In this document: positions 1,501 to 14,657 of the stretch, in pieces | How positions within the stretch are numbered: the stretch's first letter is position 1 | Layout: each line of letters begins with the position of its first letter | Assembly: GCA_050010515.1 (NCBI GenBank) | Contig: JBEKKX010000051.1 | Location: 1 to 14,657 of the forward strand | Length of the DNA stretch: 14,657 bases | DNA from: Candidatus Bathyarchaeia archaeon | GTDB lineage: Archaea; Thermoproteota; Bathyarchaeia; Bathyarchaeales; Bathycorpusculaceae | Direction: 5' to 3' | Translations under genes and position numbers: made by a program | Notes under the pieces: model-generated | Told to the model about the DNA's origin: nothing | Database searches by the model: none | What the model saw: only the letters and a program-made list of their open reading frames with translations

Positions 1501-1504
1501 GGCT

Positions 1505-2786: not shown

Positions 2787-2886
2787 AACATCATACCTAT
2801 GTAATTGACTTCTTAGTTATATATTCATAGGTTATTCAAAACTTATAAATACTTGCGTGTGTAGTTAAATACATAGATGAAAAACC
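2787..2886. promoter_or_regulatory. Divergent archaeal promoter region
   Basis: Plus-strand TATA-like TTATAAAT at 2843-2850, preceded by a purine run. Minus-strand ATATATAA at 2824-2817, about 30 nt before the RHH ATG. Confidence 0.55.
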
Positions 2887-3750
2887 GTGATAAAAAGAGG
2901 CATAGGCGCGGATCAAATAAAAAAATCCGAGTTATCAACACAAAAAATATTAGCAGTTCTAAAAGACGGTGCCTGGCATCGTTACATGGAGATTCTGAAA
3001 GAAACCAAAATCAGCCCTACAACATTAACCAAAAGACTTAAAGAATTAGAAAAAGGCATAGTGGAAAGAAAACTTGATACTGAAGGCAAAGAATATCCTC
3101 CTCCAGTGGCATATAGAATTAGGAACTCTGAATTAGCCTCAAGCATTGAAAAGGAAATAGAACAAGCTAAAAAAGTCGCTTCTCTGATATCTAAAAATAG
3201 AAATGTCACTTATTCAGCAATAGCCTATTTCCTTAAAACCGCGCAATTAAATTTTAACATACACTTACTTCTTAACTTACAGTTGTTTTTCTGGAAGGCT
3301 AAAAACGAAGGTGATCCGCGAACTGAAGAAGAAACAAAAGCATCCAGGGAAAATGCCTACACACAATATTTAGAGAGCCTAATAATGCCTAATTTTACAA
3401 ATTGGCTTAGCATACTTAAAGAAAAACTTGAGGATTTAGAAAAACAAGGGGTTAATGTTACAACTTTGTTAAGGGACGCAAACATTCAAGTAATGAAGGA
3501 TGGTCTTCCAGAATTTGGAATAATAGTGAAATTTCCCGAAAAAGACGTATGTACGCATGACGCGTCTGTGTCGGCTAAGTTCTCAGAGGAACTTCAAAAA
3601 CGGAAGGAAATTGACGCTAAAATTTTTGCGGTAATGTGTGATGGAAAACCACATACTGACGAGGAAATCAGCGAAAAAACTAAGCTGCCGGCTACCGAAA
3701 TATCGAGTTATTTTTCTCGTAGCAAAAAAGAAGCTGAGAAGGTGAGCTAA
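2887..3750 (+). CDS. Winged-helix transcriptional regulator (HxlR/ArsR-like N-terminal wHTH, probable second HTH at the C-terminus)
   Basis: KILAVLKDGAWHRYMEILKETKISPTTLTKRLKELEKGIVERK...VAYRI is a wHTH. C-terminal KIFAVMCDGKPHTDEEISEKTKLPATEISSYF resembles it. Confidence 0.75.
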   Translation: MIKRGIGADQIKKSELSTQKILAVLKDGAWHRYMEILKETKISPTTLTKRLKELEKGIVERKLDTEGKEYPPPVAYRIRNSELASSIEKEIEQAKKVASLISKNRNVTYSAIAYFLKTAQLNFNIHLLLNLQLFFWKAKNEGDPRTEEETKASRENAYTQYLESLIMPNFTNWLSILKEKLEDLEKQGVNVTTLLRDANIQVMKDGLPEFGIIVKFPEKDVCTHDASVSAKFSEELQKRKEIDAKIFAVMCDGKPHTDEEISEKTKLPATEISSYFSRSKKEAEKVS

Positions 3751-3753
3751 AAA

Positions 3754-4149
3754 ATGGTTGACCCTAACGTTATCGGTGCTTTTTTAGTTGTGGTCGTTGT
3801 TGGAATAATCGCTCTCTACGCGTGGTCGGACCTTAAAAAAAGACCTCAGTATTCAACAAGTTATCCCCCAAAACATGAACTCTCAGGGCAAAAATGCGAA
3901 AACTGTGGTGGCACTACTGAAAGATTAGACGCTGAAAAAATACGCTGCCAATATTGTGGCCGAGTTTTTGATAAACCCTTACCTGAGAAACCAGTAACCG
4001 TTAGGGAAACTCAAGAAGAAAGAAAACAAGAGAACAAACAAAAGCGCATAATTTGGGAATATGACCCGATAGAATATGAGTATGCCTCTAAAGACCCCTT
4101 ACTTGACTTCGCTGAAGATGCAAATAAGACACAAGAGAATGAGTATTAA
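3754..4149 (+). CDS. Membrane-anchored zinc-ribbon protein
   Basis: N-terminal hydrophobic helix VIGAFLVVVVVGIIALYAW, then CENCGG...CQYCG. AGGTGA RBS upstream. Confidence 0.75.
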   Translation: MVDPNVIGAFLVVVVVGIIALYAWSDLKKRPQYSTSYPPKHELSGQKCENCGGTTERLDAEKIRCQYCGRVFDKPLPEKPVTVRETQEERKQENKQKRIIWEYDPIEYEYASKDPLLDFAEDANKTQENEY

Positions 4150-4343
4150 CTAGGTGCTTCTAGTAAAGCCCAAAAAATAACTTTCTCTGATACCCTGCTT
4201 GGAACTGCTCCGCTATTAATTACTCTCCAACCTTCTTTCGCATGTTTGTTAAGTAAATCATTCCATATTCCAGTTTCTTTATCATGTAAAGGCTGTACGA
4301 TGTCATTGAAACTAAAAGTTTTTAGAATTGTCAAATATTTCAT
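4146..4343 (-). CDS. DUF4177-like small protein (65 aa)
   Basis: Start ATG 4343 with AGGAG RBS. MKYLTI...LLNKHAKEGWRVIN...IFWALLEAP matches the 'LN..g.eGW.lv' signature. Confidence 0.65.
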   Translation of the reverse strand: MKYLTILKTFSFNDIVQPLHDKETGIWNDLLNKHAKEGWRVINSGAVPSRVSEKVIFWALLEAPS

Positions 4344-4489
4344 AGTTCTCTCCTTCCACTTTGTTTTAAGTCTATTCGGTAAATTAAACATATCTTTAAA
4401 CAAGAAGTTAAAAGACTATTTCTTAGAGTTTGACTTGTGCGATAAGGTTAAGGTTGTAGAGAGTGGTTTATCGAGGGGTAATTGGTGCT

Positions 4490-4830
4490 ATGGCTGTTGA
4501 TAGTCCAAAATATACAAAAAATGCGATTGAGCACATACCGACATATATAGATAAGTAATTAAAAGAAGGATAAAAAAAGCTCCGATTGTTTGTTAACTAT
4601 GTTAATTCACTCTTAGACATGAAAGAAGGAATTGGAAATATTAACTAACCATACCTTTTAGTTGTGGATTCGCATTAAGTTATAGTTGCCACACAGCGTG
4701 ATAGCTGTAGAACGCAAATCGAAAACTGGGAGAGAACCAAAGAGGTTAAATACTTACGTAAACATACGGAAATTGTGCAATTGCTGTCATTGATGCATAA
4801 TTCATAAGAGATATAGCCAAAATGGGAATA
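4490..4830 (+). pseudogene. Possible decayed ORF
   Basis: ATG 4490 after a GAGGGG RBS-like tract. The frame reads protein-like (MAVDSPKYTKNAIEHIPTYIDK*LKEG*KKLRLFVNYVNSLLDMKEG...) but has several in-frame stops. No homolog recognised. Confidence 0.25.
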
Positions 4831-4851
4831 AGACAGTATAATAAGACAGTA
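4827..4851 (+). repeat. Tandem 12-bp direct repeat AATAAGACAGTA x2 (13-bp period)
   Basis: Copies at 4827-4838 and 4840-4851. Confidence 0.8.
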
Positions 4852-4902
4852 CACACGTATGTAGGAGATTACGTTTACAGAGAGTTAGGAGAGATATAAG
4901 AA

Positions 4903-5157
4903 ATGACTGAAATATTATCCATAAAAAACATGCCTGTTAGTTGTAAGATTTTCTTGCTTCAAGAACTTGGTTTTAGCTCAGATGGAACTTTTGTTTTAGA
5001 TAAAAAAGGCGAAAGAGTGTTAGATAAATACACGAATGAGCCTGTCCGACTTGCGAATATGGCAATACTACCTGGAAGTACTATAATATTGGACGATAAT
5101 CCTTTGAGTATCGCCTCGTTCTTGGAAGAATATGGAGATGTCATCCGATCCAGTTGA
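4903..5157 (+). CDS. Hypothetical protein (84 aa)
   Basis: AGGAG RBS, protein-like composition, overlaps the next gene. Confidence 0.75.
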   Translation: MTEILSIKNMPVSCKIFLLQELGFSSDGTFVLDKKGERVLDKYTNEPVRLANMAILPGSTIILDDNPLSIASFLEEYGDVIRSS

Positions 5158-5809
5158 AAGTGCAGCTAAAGGCGTAGCGGAAGCTTTTCTTGATTGGGCA
5201 CCAGAAAAAATAAAAGAATACGTCCAGAAATTCAGACATAAAGACCTTGCTTTTGTTCAAGATGTTGAGACAATCGAGGAAGCGCTAAAGCAGAGAAAGA
5301 CTACTGAATGTGCTATTTTTAAGCAAAATATTGAAGACGAAAACCTGCGTATTTGTTTTCTATTGGGATTAACTTTACGAGGAATGGAGAGCGATAAGGA
5401 AAAGTGCATAAACCTAAGAAACAGGATACTTAAGACACATGGCGCTTATGGATTACACGTAGCCCAGTTTGTTCAAAACGGTATTTTTGCAAAATTTATT
5501 GGTCGCTATTTAGAAGAGGCATTAACTCCAAACCAAATGAAACAAGAAATCGAAAACTTATTTAAAAATATTGAACTAACAAATAGTTTTATCCAATACG
5601 TCGATGACATAGGCATGGAAGCCAATAAGATAGTAACCAGAATCCAAAGTCATGCGCCTAAAACGTACGTAATTAGTGGATTAGGCTCAGTTAAGGAAAA
5701 CTGTCGAGAAATTGCTGACGAAGTTATGTATCGAATTTCTGGGTATTCCCGCGAAACTTACGAAACAGAATTGAAAATAATAATTTTCTTAAATAGAATT
5801 GAGAGTTAA
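5132..5809 (+). CDS. Hypothetical protein (225 aa)
   Basis: Long ORF coupled to the 84-aa gene and followed by a T-rich tract. No motif recognised. Confidence 0.8.
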   Translation: MEMSSDPVESAAKGVAEAFLDWAPEKIKEYVQKFRHKDLAFVQDVETIEEALKQRKTTECAIFKQNIEDENLRICFLLGLTLRGMESDKEKCINLRNRILKTHGAYGLHVAQFVQNGIFAKFIGRYLEEALTPNQMKQEIENLFKNIELTNSFIQYVDDIGMEANKIVTRIQSHAPKTYVISGLGSVKENCREIADEVMYRISGYSRETYETELKIIIFLNRIES

Positions 5810-5812
5810 AAA

Positions 5813-5825
5813 TCTTTTTTTCTTG
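5813..5825 (+). terminator. Oligo-T archaeal terminator candidate
   Basis: TCTTTTTTTCTT directly after the stop at 5809, between convergent genes. Confidence 0.4.
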
Positions 5826-5852
5826 ATTAAGCCTTTCGCTCTCCCCAAAAAC

Positions 5853-6608
5853 TTAGCTTATGGCTGCTCGCATTTTCTTAGCAAGGTTAGAGGCTCCCAG
5901 CCTTGAGTAGTGTAAAGCTGTGTTATAATCCAACCATCCAAAATATTCCATCAAGTCGGCTTCAGTAAAACCATAATCGCTTCTAAGTTCGCTTGCTCTC
6001 TGTGCTCTAAACCAATGCTGCCACAAGTGGATTATATCGCTAAGTTTGTCACCTGTTATTTTATCCCTGAAAGGCTGATTTAATCCTAGCTTGTTGAAAA
6101 GGGGTTTAGGTATTTCGTCATTCAAGCGCCTTATGAATTTATAGCCCCAACTTACAGTTAACGGTTTATGTCCTTTGTATGGGCTTGTGAAAAGTGGGCC
6201 TTTATCTAGAGAATCCAGTTGTTCTTGTAACAAGTTAGTTAAGGGTTCTTCTAGTAGAATTGGAAAAGGTTTTCGGATTGCGTTTATAGTTTCTGTATCT
6301 CGTTTGCCATTGAGTAAGAGTAAAGCCTTCTTTGTAATTGGATCTCGCTTAGTTCGATAACGTTTTTCTAAAAGCATATTTTGGCATAGCAATATTTTTT
6401 GGTGTTTGTTTACGCTAAAGTTTTCTCTAGTAAGATTAAGAACCTCTCCAGCTCTGCCTCCAGTTTTGATTAAGCTGTTTGTATAAAGTTCGTTGCGTGG
6501 TGTTCCGCTATATTTTATTAATTCTTCTATCGGTTCCCAACCGCAAAACTCATTGACATAATCGTAAACGTTTAGTCTATGATAACTTGTTAACGGTTGA
6601 ACTAGCAT
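5853..6608 (-). CDS. Tyrosine recombinase/integrase (essentially the catalytic domain only, 251 aa)
   Basis: TGGRAGEVL (Arg I), LEKR (Lys), HWFRAQRAS (HxxR), YFGW (H/W), TALHYSRL (catalytic Tyr). GGTGA RBS upstream of ATG 6608. Confidence 0.9.
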   Translation of the reverse strand: MLVQPLTSYHRLNVYDYVNEFCGWEPIEELIKYSGTPRNELYTNSLIKTGGRAGEVLNLTRENFSVNKHQKILLCQNMLLEKRYRTKRDPITKKALLLLNGKRDTETINAIRKPFPILLEEPLTNLLQEQLDSLDKGPLFTSPYKGHKPLTVSWGYKFIRRLNDEIPKPLFNKLGLNQPFRDKITGDKLSDIIHLWQHWFRAQRASELRSDYGFTEADLMEYFGWLDYNTALHYSRLGASNLAKKMRAAIS

Positions 6609-6665
6609 GGAAAAACGTCACCACTTTTTAACTCGTTTAGACTAGGTTTAGCGCTCACATTTTGC

Positions 6666-7742
6666 TTAGTCAATTTTGACATCTCCATATTTCTCTTTTA
6701 GAGCCTTGACTTTTTCGGCTTGTTGCTCTGGAGTGCGTGTTTGCATAATTATCTTGAGAGTTTCAAAACCTAAATCGGTTAAGTCATAACAGTAAGCGCT
6801 TGAGGTTCCAGGTTTCTTAGCTGGAGTTACTAGACTTCTCGATTTAGATTTCTTTAGAACTTCTAAGAGCTCAGGGTGTTTAAGGTGAATCCAATTTTTA
6901 TCAAGTGGGCCTCTAATTTGTATGAGGTCTAAAAATTCTATGTCTATTGGTTCTGAGCGCTTTATTATTTTTGCGCTTTCGTTATCAACCATACAATCTT
7001 TCATCATTTGCTTTAGTTCCTCAACTAATAGCAAACGGTTTTCGTCATATTCCTTGTAAACATCCATTGGAACCATATCAAACGTGAATGAATCTTGCCA
7101 TTTCTTTTTTGTTCTCGGAGCCCATGATCTAAAACTTTGTTCCCAATCACACTTATCATATTTTGCTAATCCCTTTGTTGGCACAAAAATTTCGCCAGTG
7201 TATTTGTCGGTTAACTGTTGGGTAATACTGTTTGCGGTGCCCATACTTGAAAGGAAAACACCGAAAGAAGTCGCTAAAGTGTCAATCATTCCTTTGAAAA
7301 TATCCATCGCGCTTGTGTGCTGGGTCACAGCTTTATTGAATCCAGCGCCAAAATCATCCGGCATAATTAGGGGTACTCGGTTATGAAGTAAGTTTCGTGT
7401 CCATATTCGGCAAGGAACACCATGATCCATATGATAAAGAATTTGGGAAAGGTTGTAAATGAAACTTTGTAAAACAGCATCCCAATCGCCATAAACCGCA
7501 AAGGCTATGTCCATTTGAACTGTCGTTTTTCCAGTTCTCGGTTTTCCGTGGATACAAATATTTTCCCAGCTATCCCCTAAAATAGCATCCCAAACGTCAA
7601 TAACTACTCTGGGAGCTGGGAGTTTTTCTTGAGCCTTTGCGCTGTGTGGATTTTCTTCTATTGCCTTATCAATTTCTTTAGCTGTCGCTATCCATTGTTC
7701 TGCTTGCGCTATGTTTATTCGATTATCTATTGATTCAATCAT
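6666..7742 (-). CDS. P-loop ATPase resembling fusellovirus SSV1 B251 / pSSVx ORF288, with C-terminal wHTH-like extension
   Basis: ICIHGKPRTGKTT (Walker A) followed by AVYGDW, and Walker B PLIMPDDFG, as I recall for the B251 family. C-terminal YCYDLTDLGFETLK is a wHTH wing signature. Confidence 0.7.
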   Translation of the reverse strand: MIESIDNRINIAQAEQWIATAKEIDKAIEENPHSAKAQEKLPAPRVVIDVWDAILGDSWENICIHGKPRTGKTTVQMDIAFAVYGDWDAVLQSFIYNLSQILYHMDHGVPCRIWTRNLLHNRVPLIMPDDFGAGFNKAVTQHTSAMDIFKGMIDTLATSFGVFLSSMGTANSITQQLTDKYTGEIFVPTKGLAKYDKCDWEQSFRSWAPRTKKKWQDSFTFDMVPMDVYKEYDENRLLLVEELKQMMKDCMVDNESAKIIKRSEPIDIEFLDLIQIRGPLDKNWIHLKHPELLEVLKKSKSRSLVTPAKKPGTSSAYCYDLTDLGFETLKIIMQTRTPEQQAEKVKALKEKYGDVKID

Positions 7743-8158
7743 TTCGGTTTATTTCCTAAATGTCCATCGGCTCCATAAGCTGGCTTTCCCATGTTTAAGT
7801 GGACTTCTAAAATATTTGGCCATATCCATGCGTATGCGGTTTCATAAACGCTATCAAGGGCAGTAAATACTTGTCTTTGAGTAACACCATCAGTCAATAT
7901 TAAATCAACGTAAATTTCTTCCCATGGAAAACCTTTTAGTCGTGGTTCTTTAGAAATCATGTATTCTTTGCCTTTTGGTGGCAAATAATCAATTAGGGCT
8001 TTTAAAGCGTAAAAAGACTCTCTCATAACACCTCTTCCATTGTATCGTTTCCCTGAAATGAATTGGTATCTTAAGCATAATTGGTTTAACGAATTAGCAT
8101 AGTTATTACTGTACGGTGCATCTAAATCGTAATTCGCTATTTTATCTTCCATGCTCAT
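7739..8158 (-). CDS. Hypothetical protein (139 aa), coupled to the ATPase
   Basis: AGGTGA RBS and ATGA overlap with the ATPase start. Confidence 0.8.
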   Translation of the reverse strand: MSMEDKIANYDLDAPYSNNYANSLNQLCLRYQFISGKRYNGRGVMRESFYALKALIDYLPPKGKEYMISKEPRLKGFPWEEIYVDLILTDGVTQRQVFTALDSVYETAYAWIWPNILEVHLNMGKPAYGADGHLGNKPK

Positions 8159-8175
8159 TGTTTTTTTTCACCTTC

Positions 8176-8286
8176 CTAACTTAAGATTCCTTTGTAGATT
8201 GTTTTGCTCATTTCCTCTAGCTTTTTTGCTTGGTCGTTGTGGTCTTGGACTTGGTTTGGTTGATTCTGATTTTTCTTTCTCGTCAT
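8176..8286 (-). CDS. Small protein (36 aa) MTRKKNQNQPNQVQDHNDQAKKLEEMSKTIYKGILS
   Basis: GGAGG RBS at 8301-8297. Fills the gap in the operon. Not in the ORF track. Confidence 0.6.
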   Translation of the reverse strand: MTRKKNQNQPNQVQDHNDQAKKLEEMSKTIYKGILS

Positions 8287-8301
8287 TGACTTATCGCCTC
8301 C

Positions 8302-8427
8302 TTAAATAAGATCATCCATTATTATCGAATAATAAACAAGATCGGCGAAGGGGTCGCAAAAGTCTAACATCGCGTCACCATTTCGTTTTTTTGGATTCTG
8401 CTTTTTCTTTCTCTTTCCCATTTTCAT
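8302..8427 (-). CDS. Small protein with basic N-terminus and acidic/aromatic C-terminus (about 41 aa)
   Basis: MKMGKRKKKQNPKKRNGDAMLDFCDPFADLVYYSIIMDDLI. The GAGGT RBS favours a start at 8427 or 8421 over the track's 8502. Confidence 0.6.
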   Translation of the reverse strand: MKMGKRKKKQNPKKRNGDAMLDFCDPFADLVYYSIIMDDLI

Positions 8428-8434
8428 AACCTCA

Positions 8435-8641
8435 TTAATTGCTAAATAGTCGGGGAGGCTCAAAATATGTCCAGAGCGCTGGATTCCAGTCGCGTGGTTC
8501 ACTTTTCAATGCGTGGCTCTCCAGCCAATCACGTTTGAGCTCGCGTTTATTTCCTTCAGAAAAATATGTTAAATAATTATGGTCTGGCTCTGAGTCTGGG
8601 CAAGGCTCCAGTTTCTTTTTTTTCCTACCGTTATAACCCAT
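8435..8641 (-). CDS. Small basic hypothetical protein (68 aa)
   Basis: TAATG overlap with the upstream Zn-finger ORF; part of a tightly packed operon. Confidence 0.65.
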   Translation of the reverse strand: MGYNGRKKKKLEPCPDSEPDHNYLTYFSEGNKRELKRDWLESHALKSEPRDWNPALWTYFEPPRLFSN

Positions 8642-8814
8642 TATTCAACATCATCCTTTGAAACAATAAATAAACTGTCAAAGCATTTTTGATGCCATCT
8701 TCGCGTTCCACGTGTCACATGCGGTTCAAATAAATTTGAGTTTTCTATTTTCTTAACTTCAAAACCGCACACTTGGCAAGGCCCATATTTCTTATGTGTT
8801 CCAGGGTAGCCCAT
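8641..8814 (-). CDS. Small zinc-finger protein (57 aa, CxxC...HxxC)
   Basis: MGYPGTHKKYGPCQVCGFEVKKIENSNLFEPHVTRGTRRWHQKCFDSLFIVSKDDVE. ATG abuts the upstream stop and the stop overlaps the next ATG. Not in the ORF track. Confidence 0.75.
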   Translation of the reverse strand: MGYPGTHKKYGPCQVCGFEVKKIENSNLFEPHVTRGTRRWHQKCFDSLFIVSKDDVE

Positions 8815-9000
8815 TTAAACCACATACGCTCCTGGGTCACGTTTAGATTCTAAATCAAGAGAAGTTTGAATCCGCGCAAAGATTAAGTCTTTTTCCGAAC
8901 ATCTTTTCCCGTTCCTGTGAAAGACATATTTTTTTCGGTGTTTTTGAACCACTTTTTGCGGTTTTTCTTTAGGTTTAAATCGCCTAAATCTTACGCTCAT
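8815..9000 (-). CDS. Small highly basic protein (61 aa)
   Basis: AAGGTGA RBS, K/R-rich, stop abuts the next ATG. Confidence 0.7.
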   Translation of the reverse strand: MSVRFRRFKPKEKPQKVVQKHRKKYVFHRNGKRCSEKDLIFARIQTSLDLESKRDPGAYVV

Positions 9001-9014
9001 TCTTTCACCTTATC

Positions 9015-9467
9015 TTAAAACCCAGGATCGTAAAAATCCTCAAAAGAGTAGTACTGGTGTTTTTTCTTTTTGTGTTTTTCGTGTTCTTCTTTAGCACGTG
9101 TGCTTATTTTTATGGTTTGGTGGTCGGTGTGGATTGTGGTAGTTTGGCTTTTGGGTTTAGGCTTTTTCGGTGTTAGCAACCAACTGTTAAAAGGGTCAAG
9201 GACGGGCTCAATTCTTGGAGTTCTGCCAGCAAATTCAGCGTAGCCTCTTACGCTTTTGCGATTTCTATTTGCGCTATAACTGTTGGATTCGCGCTGGGCT
9301 GTGTGTTTGCCATGTTCTCTTGCTAAACGTATTCTCTCTTCTACTCGCGCCTTCATTTCTTCTCTTTTTTCCGTTTGCCTTTGCTCTTTTCTTTCATGAT
9401 AGCTTTCTCGACTTTGCTTCATCTGTTTAGATATTTCTTGGCGTGCTTGATGTGGCACGTTTTTCAC
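9015..9467 (-). CDS. Basic, coiled-coil/disordered protein (150 aa from GTG; possibly 165 aa from ACG at 9512)
   Basis: K/R/E-rich ORF in the operon. The frame is open to 9539 and a GAGGT RBS lies 7 nt before an in-frame ACG. Confidence 0.7.
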   Translation of the reverse strand: MKNVPHQARQEISKQMKQSRESYHERKEQRQTEKREEMKARVEERIRLAREHGKHTAQRESNSYSANRNRKSVRGYAEFAGRTPRIEPVLDPFNSWLLTPKKPKPKSQTTTIHTDHQTIKISTRAKEEHEKHKKKKHQYYSFEDFYDPGF

Positions 9468-9517
9468 TCGTTCTTTAATTTTGTTTGATAAACTTTGCTT
9501 TTTCTCACTCGTTTTTA

Positions 9518-9625
9518 TTACCTCACTTTTGGATTTTTTTTAACAAATTCAACCATCTTATAAGATTGCGATCTATCTCTGAACCATAGACCGTTTTTGA
9601 CTGTTGACACTTGGCCTCTGTTCAT
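9518..9625 (-). CDS. Small protein (35 aa) MNRGQVSTVKNGLWFRDRSQSYKMVEFVKKNPKVR
   Basis: ATGA overlap with the upstream 29-aa ORF. Not in the ORF track. Confidence 0.5.
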   Translation of the reverse strand: MNRGQVSTVKNGLWFRDRSQSYKMVEFVKKNPKVR

Positions 9626-9711
9626 TTCTTTTTAGCCTTCTCTTTCTCTTTACGTTCTTCTTGTTTTTGAAGCCGCCAGTATTTTCTCATGCTGGGTGTT
9701 GACTTTGGCAT
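9622..9711 (-). CDS. Very small basic peptide (29 aa) MPKSTPSMRKYWRLQKQEERKEKEKAKKK
   Basis: First ATG downstream of an AT-rich TATA-like region (about 9743-9770). The stop overlaps the next ATG. Confidence 0.5.
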   Translation of the reverse strand: MPKSTPSMRKYWRLQKQEERKEKEKAKKK

Positions 9712-9800
9712 ATCTTATCTAAAATGTAGTTTTTACATGTTGCTTATTAATAGCGTATAATAATTATAAGAAAGTCTAAGAAAAAGTCTTAGAAAAACAT
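9712..9800 (-). promoter_or_regulatory. Promoter/operator region of the long leftward operon
   Basis: Minus-strand TATTAATA at about 9752-9745. Inverted repeats ATGTA-N5-TACAT (9724-9738) and TCTAAGA-N5-TCTTAGA (9775-9793). Confidence 0.5.
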
Positions 9801-9849
9801 AAAAAAAGTATAGTAACGAAAAAAAATTAGGGGTTGAACCCGAGGTTGC

Positions 9850-10227
9850 CTATCTTGAGTCTAGCACGCAGTCATAAGGTTCTTCATAGAAAATTGACCT
9901 GTCTAATATGTTTAAGATCAGGCCAGAGTTTATTTTCAGTGCTAGTAATCCTTCGTTGGTTAAGCGGTACATTTTTTTTTCAAGATGATTTTGTTCAGAG
10001 TTATCTTTTTTGTATGATATTAATTTTGATTCCGTTAGTCTCCATAAGCAACGGTAAACTGTTACATTGTTAACTGAGATGCCGAGTTTAAGTTTAATCT
10101 GTTTTTTCATTTCGTAACCGGTCATTGGCTTATGTCCAAGCATTATCATTTCGATTAACTCAATATTTCTTATGCATACCTTACGGTATGATTCTTTGTT
10201 GTTTGTTGCTAAAATATTTCTATTCAT
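9850..10227 (-). CDS. PadR-family winged-helix DNA-binding protein
   Basis: KPMTGYEMKKQI...ISVNNVTVYRCLWRLTESKLI...KKMYRLTNEG is a PadR signature. Start likely ATG 10227 (GAGGA RBS) rather than 10284. Confidence 0.85.
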   Translation of the reverse strand: MNRNILATNNKESYRKVCIRNIELIEMIMLGHKPMTGYEMKKQIKLKLGISVNNVTVYRCLWRLTESKLISYKKDNSEQNHLEKKMYRLTNEGLLALKINSGLILNILDRSIFYEEPYDCVLDSR

Positions 10228-10231
10228 TTTT

Positions 10232-10696
10232 TCAATCCTCTTTTTGGCGATATCTGTTAGTAATCTTTTTTGTTTTTGCTCCATGGCCTATTCGCGCTAT
10301 GTTTTGTCCAATTCTCCTTCCGTTAGGTCCTGATGTTCTGTCAACCCATACAGATTTGAAAAACTTATCAGCCCTATATTTTTCAGCATCGGCATCGCTT
10401 ATTTTTATTGTTGTAATTTCATCGACGCCCAAACGCCGATAAGCTTCAATTCTATGGTAGCCATCGTAAGGTGTAATTTTTCCATGTTCGTTATCGACTA
10501 TAACTGATGCCAATTTTTTACCAGACTTAATGTCTTCCATATATCTTTTGATTGTTGGTTCATTCAAGTTCCAGCTTGGTCTGGAAAAGTTGTTTATTCG
10601 TGACGTTGTTGGAAAACCATCTACTTCTATAAGTTCTTTGGTATATGGGTGAGTGAACACTCCACGCACAATTTTTATACTTTTTGATGTTTCCAT
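10232..10696 (-). CDS. ParB/Sulfiredoxin-like N-terminal domain protein
   Basis: IKRYMEDIKSG..LASVIVD...PYDGYHRIEAYRRLG (DGxHR box). AGGAGG RBS. Confidence 0.85.
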   Translation of the reverse strand: METSKSIKIVRGVFTHPYTKELIEVDGFPTTSRINNFSRPSWNLNEPTIKRYMEDIKSGKKLASVIVDNEHGKITPYDGYHRIEAYRRLGVDEITTIKISDADAEKYRADKFFKSVWVDRTSGPNGRRIGQNIARIGHGAKTKKITNRYRQKED

Positions 10697-10821
10697 TTTT
10701 CTTTTTCCTCCTTAGTTTCGTATGTGGTTATCATACAAGTGCATATATAAAATATCATATTAAGAAACAAACATAAAACTACATAAATACGTGGATAAGT
10801 CATATAGATGTGTGCAAAAAT

Positions 10822-10968
10822 ATGAACCCTGACATGCCTAAAAAACGAGTAACCATAAGCATAACACCTGAATGTTTAGCGTGGATTGACGGCCAAGTGC
10901 AAAAGCGAATCTATAAAGATCGTAGCCATGCCGTTGAAAAGTTGATTTATGATAAGATGCAACCATAA
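10822..10968 (+). CDS. Ribbon-helix-helix (CopG/Arc/MetJ-like) protein, 48 aa
   Basis: MNPDMPKKRVTISITPECLAWIDGQVQKRIYKDRSHAVEKLIYDKMQP: alternating strand VTISI, and RS.av helix start. Not in the ORF track; exact start uncertain. Confidence 0.85.
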   Translation: MNPDMPKKRVTISITPECLAWIDGQVQKRIYKDRSHAVEKLIYDKMQP

Positions 10969-10986
10969 TTTTATGTGATAAATTTT

Positions 10987-11190
10987 TCACTCAGAAACAG
11001 CTTTTTTAATCTCTTTTAAAACATCTATCAGCTTATTTGTTAGGTTATCGCATTTTTCAGGGTTTCTTTTCTGAAACCTCTTAAGACGATAACGATAACG
11101 CATTAAACTATTTTGCTCTTTCTTTTTAGTCGTGCTGCCGTCAATAAGCAAACTTGGCAGTTTACGCTTTACCCTTTCAGCGTCAACCAT
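10987..11190 (-). CDS. Small basic hypothetical protein (67 aa)
   Basis: ORF with GGAG upstream, convergent with the RHH gene. No motif. Confidence 0.5.
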   Translation of the reverse strand: MVDAERVKRKLPSLLIDGSTTKKKEQNSLMRYRYRLKRFQKRNPEKCDNLTNKLIDVLKEIKKAVSE

Positions 11191-11460
11191 GCTTAGAAGG
11201 CTCCAAAAAAAGAAAAAGGGAATTGTGCGCGGGAGATGTTAAGTGGTGACAGTTGATATAACTTTATTGCTAACTTGGTTAGCCTCCAAATCCAAAAATT
11301 TTAATTAACTGTCCTATTAACAATATCTGTAATGATAACTTTGTCAACTTTAAAAAACGCAATTTTTACATTAAATGGGAAATTTGATAGTTTTACTAGA
11401 AAAATATATCAAGGTATTTGACTATCTAATGAGAAAAACACATTTGGAGAAAAGGATTAT

Positions 11461-12024
11461 TTGAAAAACATGATTGAGTTCAGATGGCATGGTAGAGGCG
11501 GTCAAGGAGCATGGACAGCCAGCGAATTACTGGCAAGAACAGCCCTTGATGAAGGCAAATATATTCAATCATTCCCTGAATTTGGTCCTGAACGAATGGG
11601 CGCGCCAGTGACTGCCTTTACAAGAATAAGCACTGAACCAATAAGATTGCATTGCGCCATTTACGAACCAGATGTTGTTGTCGTTTTAGATAACACGCTG
11701 CTGAAAACAGTTCCAGTTACAGCTGGATTAAACGATGACGAAGACATACTAATTATTAATTCAACCGAGGAACCGGCTGCCCTAAAAGAAAGCCTTAGGG
11801 TGACAAAAGGCAAAGTGTGGACAGTTCCAGCAACCGAAATTGCCCTAAAAATTTTGGGAGCACCAATAACCAACACAGCAATGCTGGGCTGTGTCGCTAA
11901 GGCAACTGGAATAGTCACTTTAGAAGGCATAGAGAAAACGCTGAAGGGACGTTTCAGAACAGACTTAGCAGAGAAAAACTTCGCGATTATCAAGGAAGCG
12001 TATGAGGAGGCAAAATCCGAATGA
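11461..12024 (+). CDS. porC: Pyruvate/2-oxoacid:ferredoxin oxidoreductase gamma subunit (porC, also called porG)
   Basis: EFRWHGRGGQGA, SFPEFGPERMGAPV, NTAMLG motifs. Start TTG 11461 or ATG 11470. Confidence 0.95.
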   Translation: MKNMIEFRWHGRGGQGAWTASELLARTALDEGKYIQSFPEFGPERMGAPVTAFTRISTEPIRLHCAIYEPDVVVVLDNTLLKTVPVTAGLNDDEDILIINSTEEPAALKESLRVTKGKVWTVPATEIALKILGAPITNTAMLGCVAKATGIVTLEGIEKTLKGRFRTDLAEKNFAIIKEAYEEAKSE

Positions 12025-12302
12025 GTCGAGAGAAAAGCTGGAAAGAAATCTCTATAGCTGGAGTATGCTCAAAATCCAGCGTTGGATTCATGACAGGCGA
12101 CTGGAAAACTTACACGCCAATACGAGACCTGGAGAAATGTACAAAATGCTTAACATGCGTGATGTTTTGTCCTGAAGGAGCTATAAAGTGGCGTCCAGAG
12201 ATGGGCGACATCGAGTTTGACTTTAGCTTCTGCAAAGGCTGCGGAATATGCGCCAACGAGTGCCCAACTAAAGCAATAACAATGAAGATAGAAGGGGAGT
12301 AA
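12021..12302 (+). CDS. porD: Pyruvate/2-oxoacid:ferredoxin oxidoreductase delta subunit (2x[4Fe-4S])
   Basis: TGDWK..P, CTKCLTCVMFCPE and CKGCGICANECP. ATGA overlap with gamma. Confidence 0.95.
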   Translation: MSREKSWKEISIAGVCSKSSVGFMTGDWKTYTPIRDLEKCTKCLTCVMFCPEGAIKWRPEMGDIEFDFSFCKGCGICANECPTKAITMKIEGE

Positions 12303-12308
12303 AAGGAC

Positions 12309-13541
12309 ATGGAAAAACAAGCTAAACAGGAAACTATAGCTTTAAACGGAGATGAAGCAGTTGCATTCGCAGTTAAGCAATGTGATGTTGACGTAGTTGC
12401 AGCTTACCCAATTACGCCTCAAACAATCATTGTTGAAAAATTCAGCGAATACGTCGCCAACGGAGAGGTCCAAACAGAGTTTGTCTGCACGGAATCAGAG
12501 CATAGTGCGATGACCGCTTGCCTTGCTGCTTCAGCTACGGGTGCAAGAACTTTCACTGCCAGCGCTTCTGCAGGTTTAGCGTTGATGCATGAGATGCTTT
12601 TTGTTACGTCTGGTTGTCGAGCGCCAGTTGTGATGGCTATTGCTAACCGCGCTTTGTCTGCGCCGCTAAACATTCATGGTGACCAATCAGACAGCATGGC
12701 AGAAAGAGACAGCGGATGGATACACATTTACGTTGAGAACGCTCAGGAGGCATATGACTCTATTATTCAAGCGTTCAAGATTGCTGAGGATGTTGATGTG
12801 TCTTTGCCGATTATTGTTGGATTAGACGGGTTTACGGTAAGTCACACGTTGGAGAACGTCGATGTACTTTCTGAAGACGCGGTGAAGCAGTTTGTTGGAG
12901 AACGCCAACTGCCCAATGTACTTACGCATGAAGGTAAAACAGTGCCGTTTAAGCTTGATCCAGATAATCCGATGACTATGGGACCGATTGCTTTTCAAAA
13001 CTACTATTTTGAGTTTAAACGCCAGCAGGAAGAAGGCATGAAGAACGCGTTAAAGCGAATACAAGAGGTTAACACTGAATATGCCAAAGTCACTGGCAGA
13101 AGCTACGGCAACGGCCTAATAGATGCTTACAAGCTTGAGGACGCTGAAATTGCAGTGGTGTGCGTTGGCTCAACTTCTGGAACACTAAAAGTAATTGTTG
13201 ACGAATTAAGGCAAGAGGGCGTTAAAGCTGGGCTTCTACGACTACGTACGTTCAGGCCACTACCCGTCGAAGAACTTCGAAAAGCATTAAGCAACAGCAC
13301 TGCAGTTGCGGTTATGGATAAAAGTATGAGTTTCGGCGGTTTCGGCGGCGCAGTTTTCACTGAAGTTCGCCATGCGCTTTACGATGATAAGAAGCATCCG
13401 TTTATTGTGAACTACATTTACGGTTTAGGCGGGAGAGATTATAGTCCCCGTGAACTACGAACAATCTTCGAAGAGCTTACGAATATTGCAAGAACTAGAC
13501 ATGTTGAAAGCCAAATTCACTATTTAGGGTTAAGGGAGTAA
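12309..13541 (+). CDS. porA: Pyruvate/2-oxoacid:ferredoxin oxidoreductase alpha subunit
   Basis: GDEAVA, AAYPITPQT, ESEHSA, NRALSAPLNIHGDQSD, YGLGGRD motifs. Confidence 0.97.
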   Translation: MEKQAKQETIALNGDEAVAFAVKQCDVDVVAAYPITPQTIIVEKFSEYVANGEVQTEFVCTESEHSAMTACLAASATGARTFTASASAGLALMHEMLFVTSGCRAPVVMAIANRALSAPLNIHGDQSDSMAERDSGWIHIYVENAQEAYDSIIQAFKIAEDVDVSLPIIVGLDGFTVSHTLENVDVLSEDAVKQFVGERQLPNVLTHEGKTVPFKLDPDNPMTMGPIAFQNYYFEFKRQQEEGMKNALKRIQEVNTEYAKVTGRSYGNGLIDAYKLEDAEIAVVCVGSTSGTLKVIVDELRQEGVKAGLLRLRTFRPLPVEELRKALSNSTAVAVMDKSMSFGGFGGAVFTEVRHALYDDKKHPFIVNYIYGLGGRDYSPRELRTIFEELTNIARTRHVESQIHYLGLRE

Positions 13542-13559
13542 TTTAGGAGGAAAAACAAA

Positions 13560-14528
13560 TTGACAACTCAAGAATGGAGATTCACAGCCAAAGACATTGC
13601 GTCTAAACCAGATTTGTTCCTTTCAGGTCACCGGGCATGTGCAGGTTGCGGACCAGCATCAGTGCTGCGTTTGATAATGAAAGCTACACGTGGACCAACA
13701 ATTGTGACTGAAGCAACTGGCTGCATGGAAGTAGTCTCATCAATTTACCCTTACACGTCTTGGGCTGTGCCATGGTTGCACACGGCTTTTGAGAATGCCG
13801 CTGCAAACGCTTCAGGTATTGACGCTGCATTGAAAGCTATGCGTAAGAAGGGCAAAGTGAAGCAAGAGCACATTGATATTATTGCGATTGCTGGTGACGG
13901 TGGAACTTTCGACATTGGCTTGCAAGCGTTGTCTGGTGCTGTTGAACGTGGACATGACTTCTTGTTTGTGCTGTATGATAATGAGGCTTACATGAACACT
14001 GGTATCCAACGTAGCGGTGGAACACCGACTGGTGCAGCGACGACGACGACTCCTGCTGGCTTAGTTATTCCTGGAAAACTCGAGAAGAAGAAGCCGATTA
14101 CTGAGATTATGTTGGCGCATGACATGGAGTACGTGGCTACTGCATCACCATACTACTGGAAAGACATGCTGACAAAAGTTCGGAAAGGCTTAGAAGTGAA
14201 TGGACCAGCGTTTCTGCATATATTTGCTCCTTGTCCAAGGGGTTGGCGTTGTGAACCAAGCAAAGCCATAGAGTACTCCAAGTTGGCTGTGGAATCCTGC
14301 GTGTTTCCAATTTGGGAAGCAGTAAACGGCAAACGGCAACTTTCAACACCAAGCAAACTGATTGCTTTGGCACCGCAAAAGAAGAAGCCAGTTAAAGATT
14401 ACCTTGCTGGCCAAGGAAGGTTTAGGCACCTGTTTACCCCGCAAAATAAGCACGTGCTGGATGAGATGCAACGTTTAACTGATGAACATTGGGAACGGCT
14501 TCTCCAAAAGTGCGAGCCAAGCAGCTAA
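13560..14528 (+). CDS. porB: Pyruvate/2-oxoacid:ferredoxin oxidoreductase beta subunit (TPP-binding)
   Basis: GHRACAGCG, ATGCMEV, GDGGTFDIG...DNEAYMNTGIQRS, PCPRGW. TTG start with AGGAGG RBS. Confidence 0.97.
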   Translation: MTTQEWRFTAKDIASKPDLFLSGHRACAGCGPASVLRLIMKATRGPTIVTEATGCMEVVSSIYPYTSWAVPWLHTAFENAAANASGIDAALKAMRKKGKVKQEHIDIIAIAGDGGTFDIGLQALSGAVERGHDFLFVLYDNEAYMNTGIQRSGGTPTGAATTTTPAGLVIPGKLEKKKPITEIMLAHDMEYVATASPYYWKDMLTKVRKGLEVNGPAFLHIFAPCPRGWRCEPSKAIEYSKLAVESCVFPIWEAVNGKRQLSTPSKLIALAPQKKKPVKDYLAGQGRFRHLFTPQNKHVLDEMQRLTDEHWERLLQKCEPSS

Positions 14529-14541
14529 ACTCCTTCTTTAT

Positions 14542-14657
14542 TAAAACTTGACGAGAATACTGCAACCGTTAGGTTGCAGATGAATCGGCAGTAGGTTCTT
14601 TTGCTAACTCGCTAAGTGTGTTTCCTAGACGGCAGGTTGCGTCTACCGTCTAGGAGG
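14542..14657 (+). mobile_element. Left end of an IS200-type element (same family as the right end at 1-119), running off the window
   Basis: Hairpin CTGCAACC-GTTA-GGTTGCAG (14560-14579) is near-identical to the right-end hairpin CCGCAACC-GTAA-GGTTGCGG, and ATA precedes the C in both. The window ends in AGGAGG (putative tnpA RBS). Exact cut site uncertain (14538-14553). Confidence 0.75.
14621..14657 (+). promoter_or_regulatory. Hairpin sequestering a putative tnpA Shine-Dalgarno sequence
   Basis: TCCTAGACGGCAG (14623-14635) pairs with CTACCGTCTAGGA (14643-14655) with one mismatch. The 3' arm overlaps AGGAGG. Confidence 0.6.

What the first reader, a model, noticed from the sequence alone, without database searches (positions are those of the whole stretch)
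8176..9711. Tightly packed run of eight tiny basic ORFs, four absent from the supplied ORF track
Seen, in transcription order: 29 aa (9711), 35 aa (9625), 150-165 aa, 61 aa, 57-aa Zn finger (8814), 68 aa, 41 aa, 36 aa (8286). They are joined by ATGA/TAATG overlaps, abutting codons or clear GGAGG/GGTGA RBSs, which tile the region almost without gaps and argue they are real. Most have K/R-rich N-termini (MGYNGRKKKK, MGKRKKKQ, MTRKK, MSVRFRRFK). Inference: a microprotein array at the head of the ATPase/integrase operon, acting as genome-condensing proteins (analogous to SSV1 VP2), host-takeover effectors or anti-defence proteins.
Basis: partly seen in the sequence, partly recalled or inferred. 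Interest (0 to 1): 0.7.

Follow-up and report, generated by a model that had tools for sequence, protein, structure and literature searches.

The report
Small genes heading a mobile-element operon
A run of tiny, mostly basic genes sits in front of the replication ATPase and integrase of a virus- or plasmid-like element in an archaeal genome; most look real, but the layout is ordinary for archaeal mobile elements and their function is still unknown.

Summary
The eight minus-strand ORFs exist as described. ORFs of at least 29 aa cover 95.5% of the 1536 bases, against 49 +/- 13% in 1000 dinucleotide shuffles; none reached the observed value.

Support differs by ORF:
- The 150-aa ORF has four clear homologs (E 3e-22 to 1e-5).
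- The 68-aa ORF has one 84%-identical homolog with an in-frame indel.
- The 61-, 39- and 36-aa ORFs have Shine-Dalgarno 5-mers.
- The 57-aa ORF has only stop/start coupling and a CxxC...HxxC pattern, with no homolog.
- The 29- and 35-aa ORFs have no independent support.

Codon statistics do not separate the small ORFs from composition-matched chance ORFs.

The downstream ATPase belongs to the DnaA-like (SSV1 B251-type) family. Its ~130-aa partner is conserved in relatives, whereas the region upstream of that pair varies.

The closest analogue is the tightly packed small-ORF operons T5 and T6 of SSV1. No ORF resembles VP2.

One new lead: the 150-aa family and the 39-aa ORF share a lysine run followed by a PIP-box-like tail. 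This is untested.

Verdict: real, ordinary, a new member of a known kind.

The parts
9712..9849 (-). Intergenic control region: an oligo-T cluster that probably terminates the upstream PadR-like gene, then an A/T-rich TATA-like stretch with tandem half-repeats, ahead of the first small ORF
   Evidence: T runs of 8, 7, 5 and 5 lie at 9826-9781 on the minus strand. Sequence read. A roughly 48-bp piece (9742-9789) is shared with other, otherwise unlike contigs in 4 of 4 runs laid (loose ends). Promoter function is inferred.
9622..9711 (-). 29-aa ORF (pI 10.4); weakest support, may be an untranslated leader or a uORF
   Evidence: ORF. No SD. Codon-model p = 0.15 against composition-matched chance ORFs. 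Exact sequence gene-called on 10 contigs. No family match.
9518..9625 (-). 35-aa ORF (pI 11.1), overlapping the 29-aa ORF by ATGA; weak support
   Evidence: No SD. Codon-model p = 0.14. No structured RNA alternative: fold z-score -0.64 for 9468-9740.
9015..9467 (-). 150-aa gene, member of a small unnamed family: long N-terminal helix, KPKPK plus a beta-hairpin, a lysine run, and a C-terminal hydrophobic/acidic tail motif
   Evidence: Homologs P0073 to P0076 at E 3e-22, 4e-19, 2e-14 and 1e-5. Alignments. Weak syntenic relatives in L047, L051 and L021. Model: helix 6-63 with pLDDT about 90, hairpin 108-123, the rest of low confidence. No ORF of 150 aa or more appeared in 400 shuffles.
8815..9000 (-). 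61-aa basic gene (pI 10.6, net charge +12)
   Evidence: GGTGA lies 4 nt before the ATG. Codon-model p = 0.09. No hit in the 83 related loci. I did not search it against the large protein databases.
8641..8814 (-). 57-aa ORF with a CxxC...HxxC pattern (possible small zinc-binding protein). It is in the same frame as the 61-aa ORF and separated from it only by TAA
   Evidence: No homolog other than itself. No family. Low-confidence beta-beta-alpha model. The Atlas look-alikes are leads only.
8435..8641 (-). 68-aa gene, conserved in one related element
   Evidence: P0071 is 84% identical (58 of 69), 90% positives, with one in-frame 2-aa indel. TAATG overlap with the 57-aa ORF.
8302..8421 (-). 39-aa gene: a lysine run followed by the same tail motif as the C-terminus of the 150-aa family
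   Evidence: GAGGT lies 7 nt before the ATG. BLASTP against the C-terminus of P0075 gives E 3e-4 for that single comparison. Exact 39-aa form is in the collection.
8176..8286 (-). 36-aa ORF with a strong SD but poor codon statistics
   Evidence: GGAGG lies 10 nt before the ATG. The codon model prefers another frame (margin -5.5; p = 0.66).
7739..8158 (-). 139-aa conserved partner gene of the ATPase (context)
   Evidence: GGTGA SD. ATGA overlap with the ATPase. An ORF of 107-177 aa sits directly before the ATPase in 15 of 21 related loci, and also in L061 and L051.
6666..7742 (-). DnaA-like (SSV1 B251-type) P-loop ATPase (context)
   Evidence: phrog_5484 'DnaA-like replication initiation protein', E 1.1e-8, profile positions 19-234 of 239. 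tblastn hits to the DnaA-like genes of SMV3 and SMV4, E 1e-3. BLASTP against SSV1 B251, E 2e-4. 54 homologs.
5853..6608 (-). Short tyrosine-recombinase-like gene ending the operon (context)
   Evidence: Weak Phage_integrase hit, E 0.02, below the cut-off. GGTGA SD. T5 runs follow at 5851-5847 and 5812-5808.

Best explanation
The 1.5-kb stretch is the promoter-proximal, fast-changing accessory part of a roughly 3.9-kb minus-strand operon. The operon belongs to a virus- or plasmid-like mobile element lying next to host por genes in an archaeal genome; the host is probably Bathyarchaeia.

The conserved core of the operon is a ~130-aa protein, a DnaA-like (SSV1 B251-type) AAA+ ATPase and a tyrosine recombinase. 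In front of it the element carries a lineage-specific run of small, hydrophilic, mostly basic proteins. They would be translated through SD sites or stop/start coupling.

Most likely (inferred, not shown) they are small nucleic-acid-binding or adaptor proteins. They would regulate or assist the element's own replication and gene expression, as the variable small-ORF operons T5 and T6 do in fuselloviruses.

Shown: the ORFs, their packing, the non-random openness of the strand, the SD sites, the homologs of two ORFs, and the identity of the ATPase family.

Inferred: translation of each ORF, operon structure, and all functions.
For: 1. Tiling: 95.5% of the strand is covered by ORFs, against 49 +/- 13% in shuffles; 0 of 1000 shuffles reached the observed value.
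2. Strand: the codon model ranks the annotated frame best of six for 7 of 8 ORFs.
3. SD 5-mers with a 3-12 nt spacer precede 3 of the 8 small-ORF starts, plus the 139-aa, integrase and 154-aa genes. The genome-wide rate is 293 of 1737 long-ORF starts (16.9%) against 27 of 838 random ATGs (3.2%). The other junctions are -4, 0 and -1 nt.
4. The 150-aa ORF has homologs at E 3e-22 to 1e-5. Weaker relatives lie just upstream of the partner+ATPase pair in L021 and L047, and one gene further upstream in L051.
5. The 68-aa ORF has an 84%-identical homolog with an in-frame indel and mostly conservative changes.
6. The ATPase matches phrog_5484 (DnaA-like), E 1e-8, and SSV1 B251, E 2e-4.
7. SSV1's annotated T5 and T6 operons show the same style: ORFs of 45-132 aa (T6) and junctions of -8 to +15 nt, including small zinc-finger, RHH and HTH proteins, with T5 ending in the integrase. 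A review calls T5 and T6 the flexible, mostly non-essential part of fusellovirus genomes, and B251 and A154 absolute-core genes (PMC9608457, passages read).
8. Only T5 runs occur inside the operon, whereas runs of 8 and 7 T lie just upstream of it.
Against: - Codon statistics do not distinguish the small ORFs from chance ORFs in composition-matched shuffles. Host-trained p values are 0.15, 0.14, 0.09, 0.28, 0.40, 0.11 and 0.66 for the 29-, 35-, 61-, 57-, 68-, 39- and 36-aa ORFs. The test has little power here, since the ORF with a clear homolog scores p = 0.40.
- Per-codon margins (0.05-0.25, and -0.15 for the 36-aa ORF) are below those of the neighbouring genes (0.32-0.60).
- tblastn against 83 related loci found nothing for five of the ORFs.
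- The 57-aa ORF has no homolog among 5.8 billion proteins, although its downstream neighbour has one.
- The closest relative with DNA in hand (L061, ATPase N-terminus 75% identical) has no such run; a divergent integrase-like gene sits there instead.
- No DNA-binding domain was recognised in any ORF.
- All public copies laid are identical, so there is no evidence on selection.
- The choice of the 39-aa start was made knowing where the SD lies.
Confidence: 0.5

Rival explanations
1. Anti-defence or host take-over microproteins: fast-evolving small proteins that inhibit host CRISPR-Cas or other defences, or redirect host machinery.
For: - The ORFs are small, lineage-specific and poorly conserved, sit at the promoter-proximal end of an operon, and lie just downstream of a PadR-type wHTH gene.
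- A preprint on Asgard viruses suggests that small orphan proteins next to HTH genes may be anti-CRISPRs (10.1101/2021.07.29.453957, passages read).
- Weak N-terminal similarity between neighbouring ORFs (57/68 aa, p = 0.026 uncorrected; 27-nt and 22-nt repeats) would fit local duplication and divergence.
Against:
- The 150-aa family is syntenic with the replication pair in relatives, which fits a role in the element's own replication better.
- The paralogy signals do not survive correction for 28 comparisons.
Confidence: 0.2
2. Virion nucleoproteins that condense the genome, analogous to SSV1 VP2.
For: - Five of the eight ORFs have pI of at least 9.6 and net charge +3 to +14.
- The ATPase family is that of spindle-shaped viruses.
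- A Bathyarchaeia spindle-type provirus is reported with a VP2 homolog two genes from its ATPase (PMC10848311, passages read).
Against: - BLASTP against SSV1 VP2: best E 4.1 (the 61-aa ORF), i.e. no similarity. No PHROG hit.
- No hydrophobic capsid-like ORF in the run or elsewhere on this strand of the window.
- VP2 is dispensable and patchy even within fuselloviruses (PMC9608457).
- High A content (41%) of the coding strand by itself favours lysine codons.
Confidence: 0.08
3. Part of the run is not coding. The 29- and 35-aa ORFs, and possibly the 36- and 57-aa ORFs, would be chance ORFs in an A-rich, T-poor 5' leader or spacers, or remnants of decayed genes. Only three to five real genes would lie in the stretch. 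This rival is not exclusive of the best explanation.
For: - No SD, no homolog and non-significant codon scores for the 29- and 35-aa ORFs.
- The codon model prefers another frame for the 36-aa ORF.
- Shuffles of this T-poor strand yield 6.6 ORFs of at least 29 aa each, and 1.1 of at least 57 aa.
- The 61- and 57-aa ORFs share a frame and are split only by TAA. A TATA-like stretch about 25 nt before the GTG of the 150-aa gene could make that gene the first real cistron (my reading).
Against: - Overall coverage is far above every shuffle (0 of 1000).
- The 36-aa ORF has a perfect GGAGG at 10 nt.
- The 57-aa ORF starts with the same MGYxG...PC N-terminus as the validated 68-aa gene, exactly at its Met.
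- No structured RNA explains 9468-9740 (z = -0.64; no Rfam family).
Confidence: 0.3

Closest known systems
[quoted passage not shown]
   Same: - Runs of 7-10 small ORFs packed with overlaps or gaps of a few nt: T6 has ORFs of 45-132 aa with junctions of -8 to +15 nt.
- T5 ends in the integrase.
- The genome also carries a DnaA-like B251 ATPase next to the integrase.
- The region is flexible and mostly non-essential among relatives (PMC9608457).
- It contains small zinc-finger proteins (A-79 and B-129, as annotated).
   Different: - No sequence similarity between any of the eight ORFs and any SSV1 protein.
- Four of the ORFs here are shorter (29-39 aa) than any SSV1 ORF in T5 or T6.
- Here the small ORFs lie in the same operon directly upstream of the ATPase and its partner, which is not the SSV1 order.
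- No capsid genes are in the window.
- No RHH, wHTH or C2H2 domain is recognisable.
SSV1 VP2, the basic DNA-binding virion protein
   Same: Small and basic; encoded by elements that carry a B251-type ATPase.
   Different: No sequence similarity (best E 4.1) and no PHROG match. Not adjacent to capsid genes. A virion role is untested.
C-terminal PIP-motif proteins of archaea (Fen1, RFC, NucS, NreA) and the small PCNA binder TIP
   Same: In 8 of 8 sequences examined, the 150-aa family ends with a lysine run followed by a hydrophobic-x-x-aromatic/hydrophobic pair at or near the C-terminus. This is the core of the QXXhXXaa PIP motif as defined in PMC4929162 (passages). TIP shows that a 64-aa archaeal protein can regulate PCNA (same paper).
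   Different: The conserved Q is at its proper position in only 1 of 8 sequences. 'h' is usually Phe rather than Leu, Ile or Met. Binding to PCNA is untested. The family is unrelated in sequence to any known PCNA partner.
Orphan small proteins and non-orthologous Zn-finger proteins of Asgard-archaeal viruses and MGEs
   Same: Those authors describe multiple small orphan proteins next to HTH genes, non-orthologous Zn-finger proteins and a Topo mini-A gene in the same elements (10.1101/2021.07.29.453957). The window also has a weak Toprim hit in its 294-aa gene.
   Different: Different host lineage; no sequence relation was tested; functions there are also only proposed.

Membership tests
SSV1 VP2-like virion DNA-binding protein | Detectable sequence homology to VP2 | tested here: not met
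   BLASTP of all eight ORFs against the VP2 translated from NC_001338: best E 4.1. No PHROG family at E <= 1 with a structural annotation. A profile-profile (HHblits-type) comparison was not possible.
SSV1 VP2-like virion DNA-binding protein | Genomic linkage to spindle-virus capsid genes (VP1/VP3, two hydrophobic helices) | tested here: not met
   No hydrophobic small ORF in the run: GRAVY is -0.64 to -2.34 for all eight. None was seen among the window's ORFs of at least 70 aa on this strand. The element is cut by the contig end, so a capsid module elsewhere cannot be excluded.
Fusellovirus-type variable small-ORF operon (T5/T6-like) | Tight packing of many small ORFs on one strand, with overlaps or gaps of a few nt | tested here: met
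   Junctions of -4, +50, +14, 0, -1, +13, +15 and +17 nt, against SSV1 T6 junctions of +15, -4, -8, +3, -4 and -4.
Fusellovirus-type variable small-ORF operon (T5/T6-like) | Linkage to a B251/DnaA-like AAA+ ATPase and a tyrosine integrase | tested here: met
   ATPase: phrog_5484, E 1.1e-8; SSV1 B251, E 2e-4; SMV3/SMV4 DnaA-like genes, E 1e-3. The integrase is only a weak Pfam hit (E 0.02, below the cut-off).
Fusellovirus-type variable small-ORF operon (T5/T6-like) | Recognisable small DNA-binding domains (RHH, wHTH, C2H2 zinc finger) among the ORFs | tested here: inconclusive
   No Pfam, PHROG or NCBIfam domain. Only a CxxC...HxxC pattern in the 57-aa ORF, with a low-confidence beta-beta-alpha model.
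Fusellovirus-type variable small-ORF operon (T5/T6-like) | Homology of the ATPase's upstream partner to A154 | tested here: not met
   BLASTP of the 139-aa protein against SSV1 A154 gave no hit at E <= 10. A more sensitive comparison was not done.
PIP-motif PCNA-binding proteins | QXXhXXaa motif, typically at the extreme C-terminus (PMC4929162) | tested here: inconclusive
   The h-x-x-a-a core follows a lysine run in 8 of 8 family sequences. Q is at the proper position in 1 of 8 (L047). The 39-aa ORF carries the same core internally.
PIP-motif PCNA-binding proteins | Physical binding to the host sliding clamp | not testable with these tools
   The host PCNA gene was identified. Binding needs a bench assay.
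DnaA-like / B251-type ATPase of archaeal spindle-shaped viruses (context gene) | Walker A and B motifs and profile match over most of the family model | tested here: met
   GKPRTGKT and MPDD are present in the translation and conserved in 23 aligned homologs. phrog_5484 is matched over positions 19-234 of 239.

The most novel reading that the evidence does not exclude
The 150-aa family and the 39-aa microprotein are docking proteins built from short linear motifs. A coiled-coil or a bare lysine run would present a PIP-box-like tail (and an internal DPF-x-x-W/F-L box) that captures the host sliding clamp PCNA, or another replisome hub, for the element's DnaA-like initiator. The 39-aa ORF would be a free-standing decoy copy of that tail. 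The run would then be an evolving toolkit of replisome-hijacking microproteins in an uncultured archaeal lineage.
Probability: 0.12. Interest if true: 0.6.

Novelty: new member of a known kind. Interest (0 to 1): 0.3.

Why it matters
Small orphan genes make up much of archaeal virus and plasmid genomes, and almost none has a known role. This case adds little as a category, because tightly packed small-ORF operons next to a DnaA-like ATPase and an integrase are textbook for fuselloviruses.

It does deliver three concrete things:
1. A graded list of which of the eight ORFs deserve annotation.
2. A small new protein family (the 150-aa gene and four clear homologs), syntenic with the replication pair in an unclassified group of elements. 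The only named genomes carrying such elements are Bathyarchaeia MAGs.
3. A cheap testable idea: that a shared C-terminal motif docks a host replication factor.

If that idea held, it would give a first handle on how such elements recruit the host replisome in an uncultured, environmentally abundant archaeal class.

Tried and rejected
I could not fetch the contigs of the closest relatives (ATPase 71-86% identical, P0002 to P0012; the 68-aa homolog P0071), so synteny and dN/dS could not be computed.

Viral collection. Three scans of viral contigs found no relative: the ATPase alone, the ATPase alignment and the 150-aa alignment.

Genomes. The ATPase was found in 1 of 60 relatives beyond the window's own genome. 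The 150-aa profile found no credible match in the 400 other genomes searched of the class; four marginal hits at E 0.002-0.008, three of them with internal stops.

Population variation. Read laying on 4 runs gave only pieces identical to the window: 0 other letters in the 32 listed pieces, with 22 more not shown. No polymorphism was available to test selection. The low word shares reflected fragmented cover, not divergence. Stretches without cover say nothing.

Expression. No RNA holder is listed among the runs.

Complex prediction. Host PCNA (alignment A3) with residues 85-150 of the 150-aa protein (alignment A4) gave 'no answer (no support, and no evidence against)', score 0.00, controls not run. 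This is neither for nor against binding.

Structure and look-alikes.
- The 57-aa model has pLDDT 55, too poor for a fold search, so none was run.
- The 150-aa model is a single long helix plus low-confidence parts; no fold search was run.
- Atlas look-alikes of the 57-aa ORF score 0.95 with 155-160 shared features. One row carries DUF2175 on 43% of its members. Those of the 68-aa ORF score 0.86 or less. Both are leads only.

Families. Pfam, PHROGs and NCBIfam gave nothing above chance for any of the eight ORFs.

RNA alternatives. No Rfam family in the window. The leader region folds no better than shuffles (z = -0.64). The sigma-70 promoter scan was at chance level, 8 found against 7.4 +/- 2.7, and is not relevant to archaea.

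Paralogy. Pairwise local alignments against shuffles gave 57/68 aa p = 0.026 and 39/150 aa p = 0.019. The 29/39 aa pair at p = 0.001 reflects lysine runs. With 28 comparisons none is convincing. The short DNA repeats D2 and D4 may be chance.

Anti-SD.

Promoter copy. The 86-bp promoter region has no second copy in the window's genome (best other E 0.33).

P0067 (415 aa), listed in the 39-aa ORF's cluster, is an unrelated protein.

Supplements were closed. Supplementary Table S4 of PMC10848311 (gene list of the spindle-type Bathyarchaeia provirus) could bear on the VP2 question and was not seen.

Searches for prior description. None of the listed papers describes this element or the 150-aa family. 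I read passages only of PMC10848311, PMC9608457, PMC4929162 and 10.1101/2021.07.29.453957. The other papers I saw only as search listings.


Full report
**What is there.** The window is one whole contig (C51) of a 2.38-Mb, 66-contig genome. The minus strand from 9711 to 8176 carries eight ORFs of 29, 35, 150, 61, 57, 68, 39 (or 41) and 36 aa. Their junctions are -4, +50, +14, 0, -1, +13 and +15 nt, and +17 nt to the next gene.

Downstream on the same strand follow:
- a 139-aa gene, overlapping the ATPase gene by ATGA;
- a 358-aa P-loop ATPase;
- a 251-aa recombinase-like gene.

Upstream lie a PadR-like gene (PF03551, E 3.6e-11) and a 154-aa gene. Between the PadR stop (9850) and the first small ORF (9711) there are minus-strand T runs of 8, 7, 5 and 5 (9826-9781). 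Inside the operon only three isolated T5 runs occur down to 8011. So the small ORFs plausibly head a separate transcription unit that runs to the recombinase. That is an inference.

From about 11.4 kb the contig carries pyruvate:ferredoxin oxidoreductase-like host genes, and G+C rises from 0.33-0.38 to 0.45.

**Is it more than chance?** As a whole, yes. ORFs of at least 29 aa cover 95.5% of the 1536 bases on this strand. The best non-overlapping chain covers 86%. In 1000 dinucleotide-preserving shuffles coverage was 49 +/- 13% (maximum 85%) and the chain 45 +/- 12% (maximum 81%). None of the 1000 reached either observed value.

A host-trained 3-periodic Markov model puts the annotated frame first of six for 7 of 8 ORFs; the exception is the 36-aa ORF.

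ORF by ORF the picture is much weaker. Against chance ORFs of similar length from the shuffles, the frame margins give p = 0.15, 0.14, 0.09, 0.28, 0.40, 0.11 and 0.66 for the 29-, 35-, 61-, 57-, 68-, 39- and 36-aa ORFs. Only the 150-aa ORF stands out, and partly by length, since no ORF of 150 aa or more arose in 400 shuffles. The test has little power here: the 68-aa ORF, which has a clear homolog, scores p = 0.40.

Per-codon margins of the small ORFs (0.05-0.25, and -0.15 for the 36-aa ORF) lie below those of the neighbouring genes (0.32-0.60).

**Translation signals.** In this genome an SD 5-mer (from AGGAGGTGA, a recalled generic consensus) with a 3-12 nt spacer precedes 293 of 1737 long-ORF starts (16.9%), against 27 of 838 random ATGs (3.2%). 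Three of the eight small ORFs have one: GGTGA (61 aa), GAGGT (39 aa) and GGAGG (36 aa). So do the 139-aa, recombinase and 154-aa genes. By my arithmetic, three or more of eight at a 3.2% background has a probability of about 0.002; the 39-aa start was chosen knowing where the SD lies.

The 35-, 57- and 68-aa ORFs have stop/start overlap or abutment instead. The 29-aa ORF and the GTG of the 150-aa ORF have neither.

**Conservation.** All eight exact sequences are gene calls in the public collection and recur on 4-15 contigs, except that the 39-aa form has no contig count. These are copies of the same element. Contig pieces from four runs of four studies (wetland, peat, soil, peat) were identical to the window, so they give no evidence on selection.

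Among diverged relatives:
- The 68-aa ORF has one homolog (P0071, 70 aa): 58 of 69 identical, 90% positives, one in-frame 2-aa indel.
- The 57-aa ORF has none.
- The 150-aa ORF has four clear homologs at 43, 65, 37 and 35% identity: E 3e-22, 4e-19, 2e-14 and 1e-5. A fifth, repetitive hit at E 6e-4 I regard as spurious.

tblastn of the window's proteins against 83 related loci (found through the ATPase) matched the ATPase in 83 of 83 and the 139-aa protein in 3. The 150-aa protein matched weakly in 3. The 61-, 57-, 68-, 39/41- and 36-aa ORFs matched in none. The single hits of the 29- and 35-aa ORFs are short and of low complexity.

**Context.** The ATPase matches phrog_5484, 'DnaA-like replication initiation protein' (E 1.1e-8, profile positions 19-234 of 239). 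It also matches the DnaA-like genes of Sulfolobus monocaudaviruses SMV3 and SMV4 (E 1e-3) and SSV1 B251 (E 2e-4).

It has 54 homologs in metagenomes. The only named genomes carrying relatives are Bathyarchaeia MAGs (3 loci), so the host is probably Bathyarchaeia. It is in any case an archaeon, with PCNA next to a primase large-subunit-like gene.

In 15 of 21 related loci with enough upstream DNA, an ORF of 107-177 aa sits directly before the ATPase, and likewise in L061 and L051. That pair is the conserved core.

What lies upstream of the pair varies:
- Most loci have opposite-strand genes there, often for membrane proteins.
- The closest relative with DNA in hand (L061, ATPase N-terminus 75% identical) has a divergent integrase-like gene and no small-ORF run.
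- Four loci (L021, L047, L064, L069) have other same-strand small K/R-rich ORFs.
- Weak relatives of the 150-aa protein lie directly upstream of the pair in L021 and L047, and one gene further upstream in L051. Relative to those, the 61-57-68-39-36 block (825 nt) looks like a lineage-specific insertion between the 150-aa gene and the pair. This is inferred.

**The individual proteins.**
- *The 150-aa family.* It shares a long N-terminal helix (model: residues 6-63, pLDDT about 90), an invariant KPKPK followed by a beta-hairpin (108-123, pLDDT 65-76), a lysine run and a short C-terminal tail. The rest of the model is of low confidence.
- *The tail motif.* In 8 of 8 sequences the tail reads hydrophobic-x-D-hydrophobic-hydrophobic at or near the C-terminus. 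A second DP-hydrophobic box lies at residues 91-98.
- *The 39-aa ORF.* It is a lysine run followed by the same tail box. BLASTP against the C-terminus of P0075 gives E 3e-4 for that single comparison.
- *Resemblance to the PIP motif.* The core matches the h-x-x-a-a part of the PCNA-interacting motif QXXhXXaa (PMC4929162, passages). The Q is in place in only one sequence. This is a lead, not a finding.
- *The 57-aa ORF.* It has a C-x2-C ... H-x2-C pattern and a low-confidence beta-beta-alpha model (pLDDT 55). It shares an MGYxG...PC N-terminus with the 68-aa gene (p = 0.026, uncorrected).
- None of the eight ORFs matches Pfam, PHROGs or NCBIfam.

**How it most likely works.** The stretch is the variable, promoter-proximal accessory part of the replication/integration operon of a virus- or plasmid-like element. 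It encodes several small basic proteins that probably bind nucleic acid or dock partners, in the service of the element's own replication and regulation.

My estimate is about 0.75 that at least five of the eight ORFs are real genes, and about 0.4 for this functional class. Combined confidence is 0.5.

Rivals:
- anti-defence or take-over effectors (0.2);
- VP2-like genome condensers (0.08; no similarity to VP2);
- a non-exclusive rival that the 29- and 35-aa ORFs, and perhaps the 36- and 57-aa ORFs, are not translated (0.3).

**Comparison with what is known.** The nearest known arrangement is in SSV1. Its annotated T5 and T6 operons are runs of small ORFs (T6: 100, 132, 80, 79, 45, 102 and 129 aa; junctions +15, -4, -8, +3, -4, -4). 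They include RHH, HTH and zinc-finger proteins, and T5 ends in the integrase. A review calls these the flexible, mostly non-essential parts of fusellovirus genomes, and calls B251 and A154 absolute-core genes that the satellite pSSVx also carries (PMC9608457, passages).

The present run works like that kind of region but shares no sequence with it. The 139-aa partner shows no BLASTP similarity to A154. Small orphan proteins and non-orthologous zinc-finger proteins are also described for Asgard-archaeal viruses and MGEs (preprint 10.1101/2021.07.29.453957, passages).

**Novelty and score.** This is a new member of a known kind. Nothing found here points to a new mechanism. The 150-aa family with its shared tail motif is new and unnamed but rare: there was no credible match in the 400 other genomes searched of the class. 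Interest 0.3.

**Limits.**
- The look-up of encoding contigs was closed, so the closest relatives' DNA was not seen.
- Five ORFs were not searched in the large protein databases.
- Supplements of the papers were closed.
- No expression data exist for this element in the runs on offer.

Noticed in passing
window 9742-9789: In 4 of 4 runs laid, contigs that are otherwise unlike the window match only this roughly 48-bp piece of the promoter region, with loose ends on both sides. This suggests a conserved promoter or operator shared with another element in the same communities. The window's own genome has no second copy.
   Followed up: partly
window 8812-8817: The 61-aa and 57-aa ORFs are in the same frame, separated only by a TAA (TAA-ATG). 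Read through, they would give a 119-aa product. The 57-aa ORF nevertheless begins with the same MGYxG N-terminus as the 68-aa gene.
   Followed up: partly
L050:536-2027: One related locus carries four tandem ORFs (131, 117, 132 and 115 aa) before the ATPase. They form two alternating types; the 117- and 115-aa ones are those that matched the window's 139-aa partner.
   Followed up: no
L042:6872-9757 and L045:5852-8665: In two related loci the ATPase domain is the N-terminal part of much longer ORFs, 961 and 937 aa.
   Followed up: no
L069:657-1351 and L030:2971-3138: Distant relatives carry other runs of very basic small ORFs (K+R up to 0.39). These include 55-aa proteins with a basic N-terminus and a hydrophobic C-terminus, which could be virion or membrane proteins.
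   Followed up: no
window 1-14657: The same contig recurs in independent assemblies with nearly the same length: 14657, 14667 and 14695 bases. Not tested here.
   Followed up: no
window 10232-10696: The 154-aa gene upstream of the PadR-like gene has a GGAGG SD but no Pfam or NCBIfam match.
   Followed up: partly
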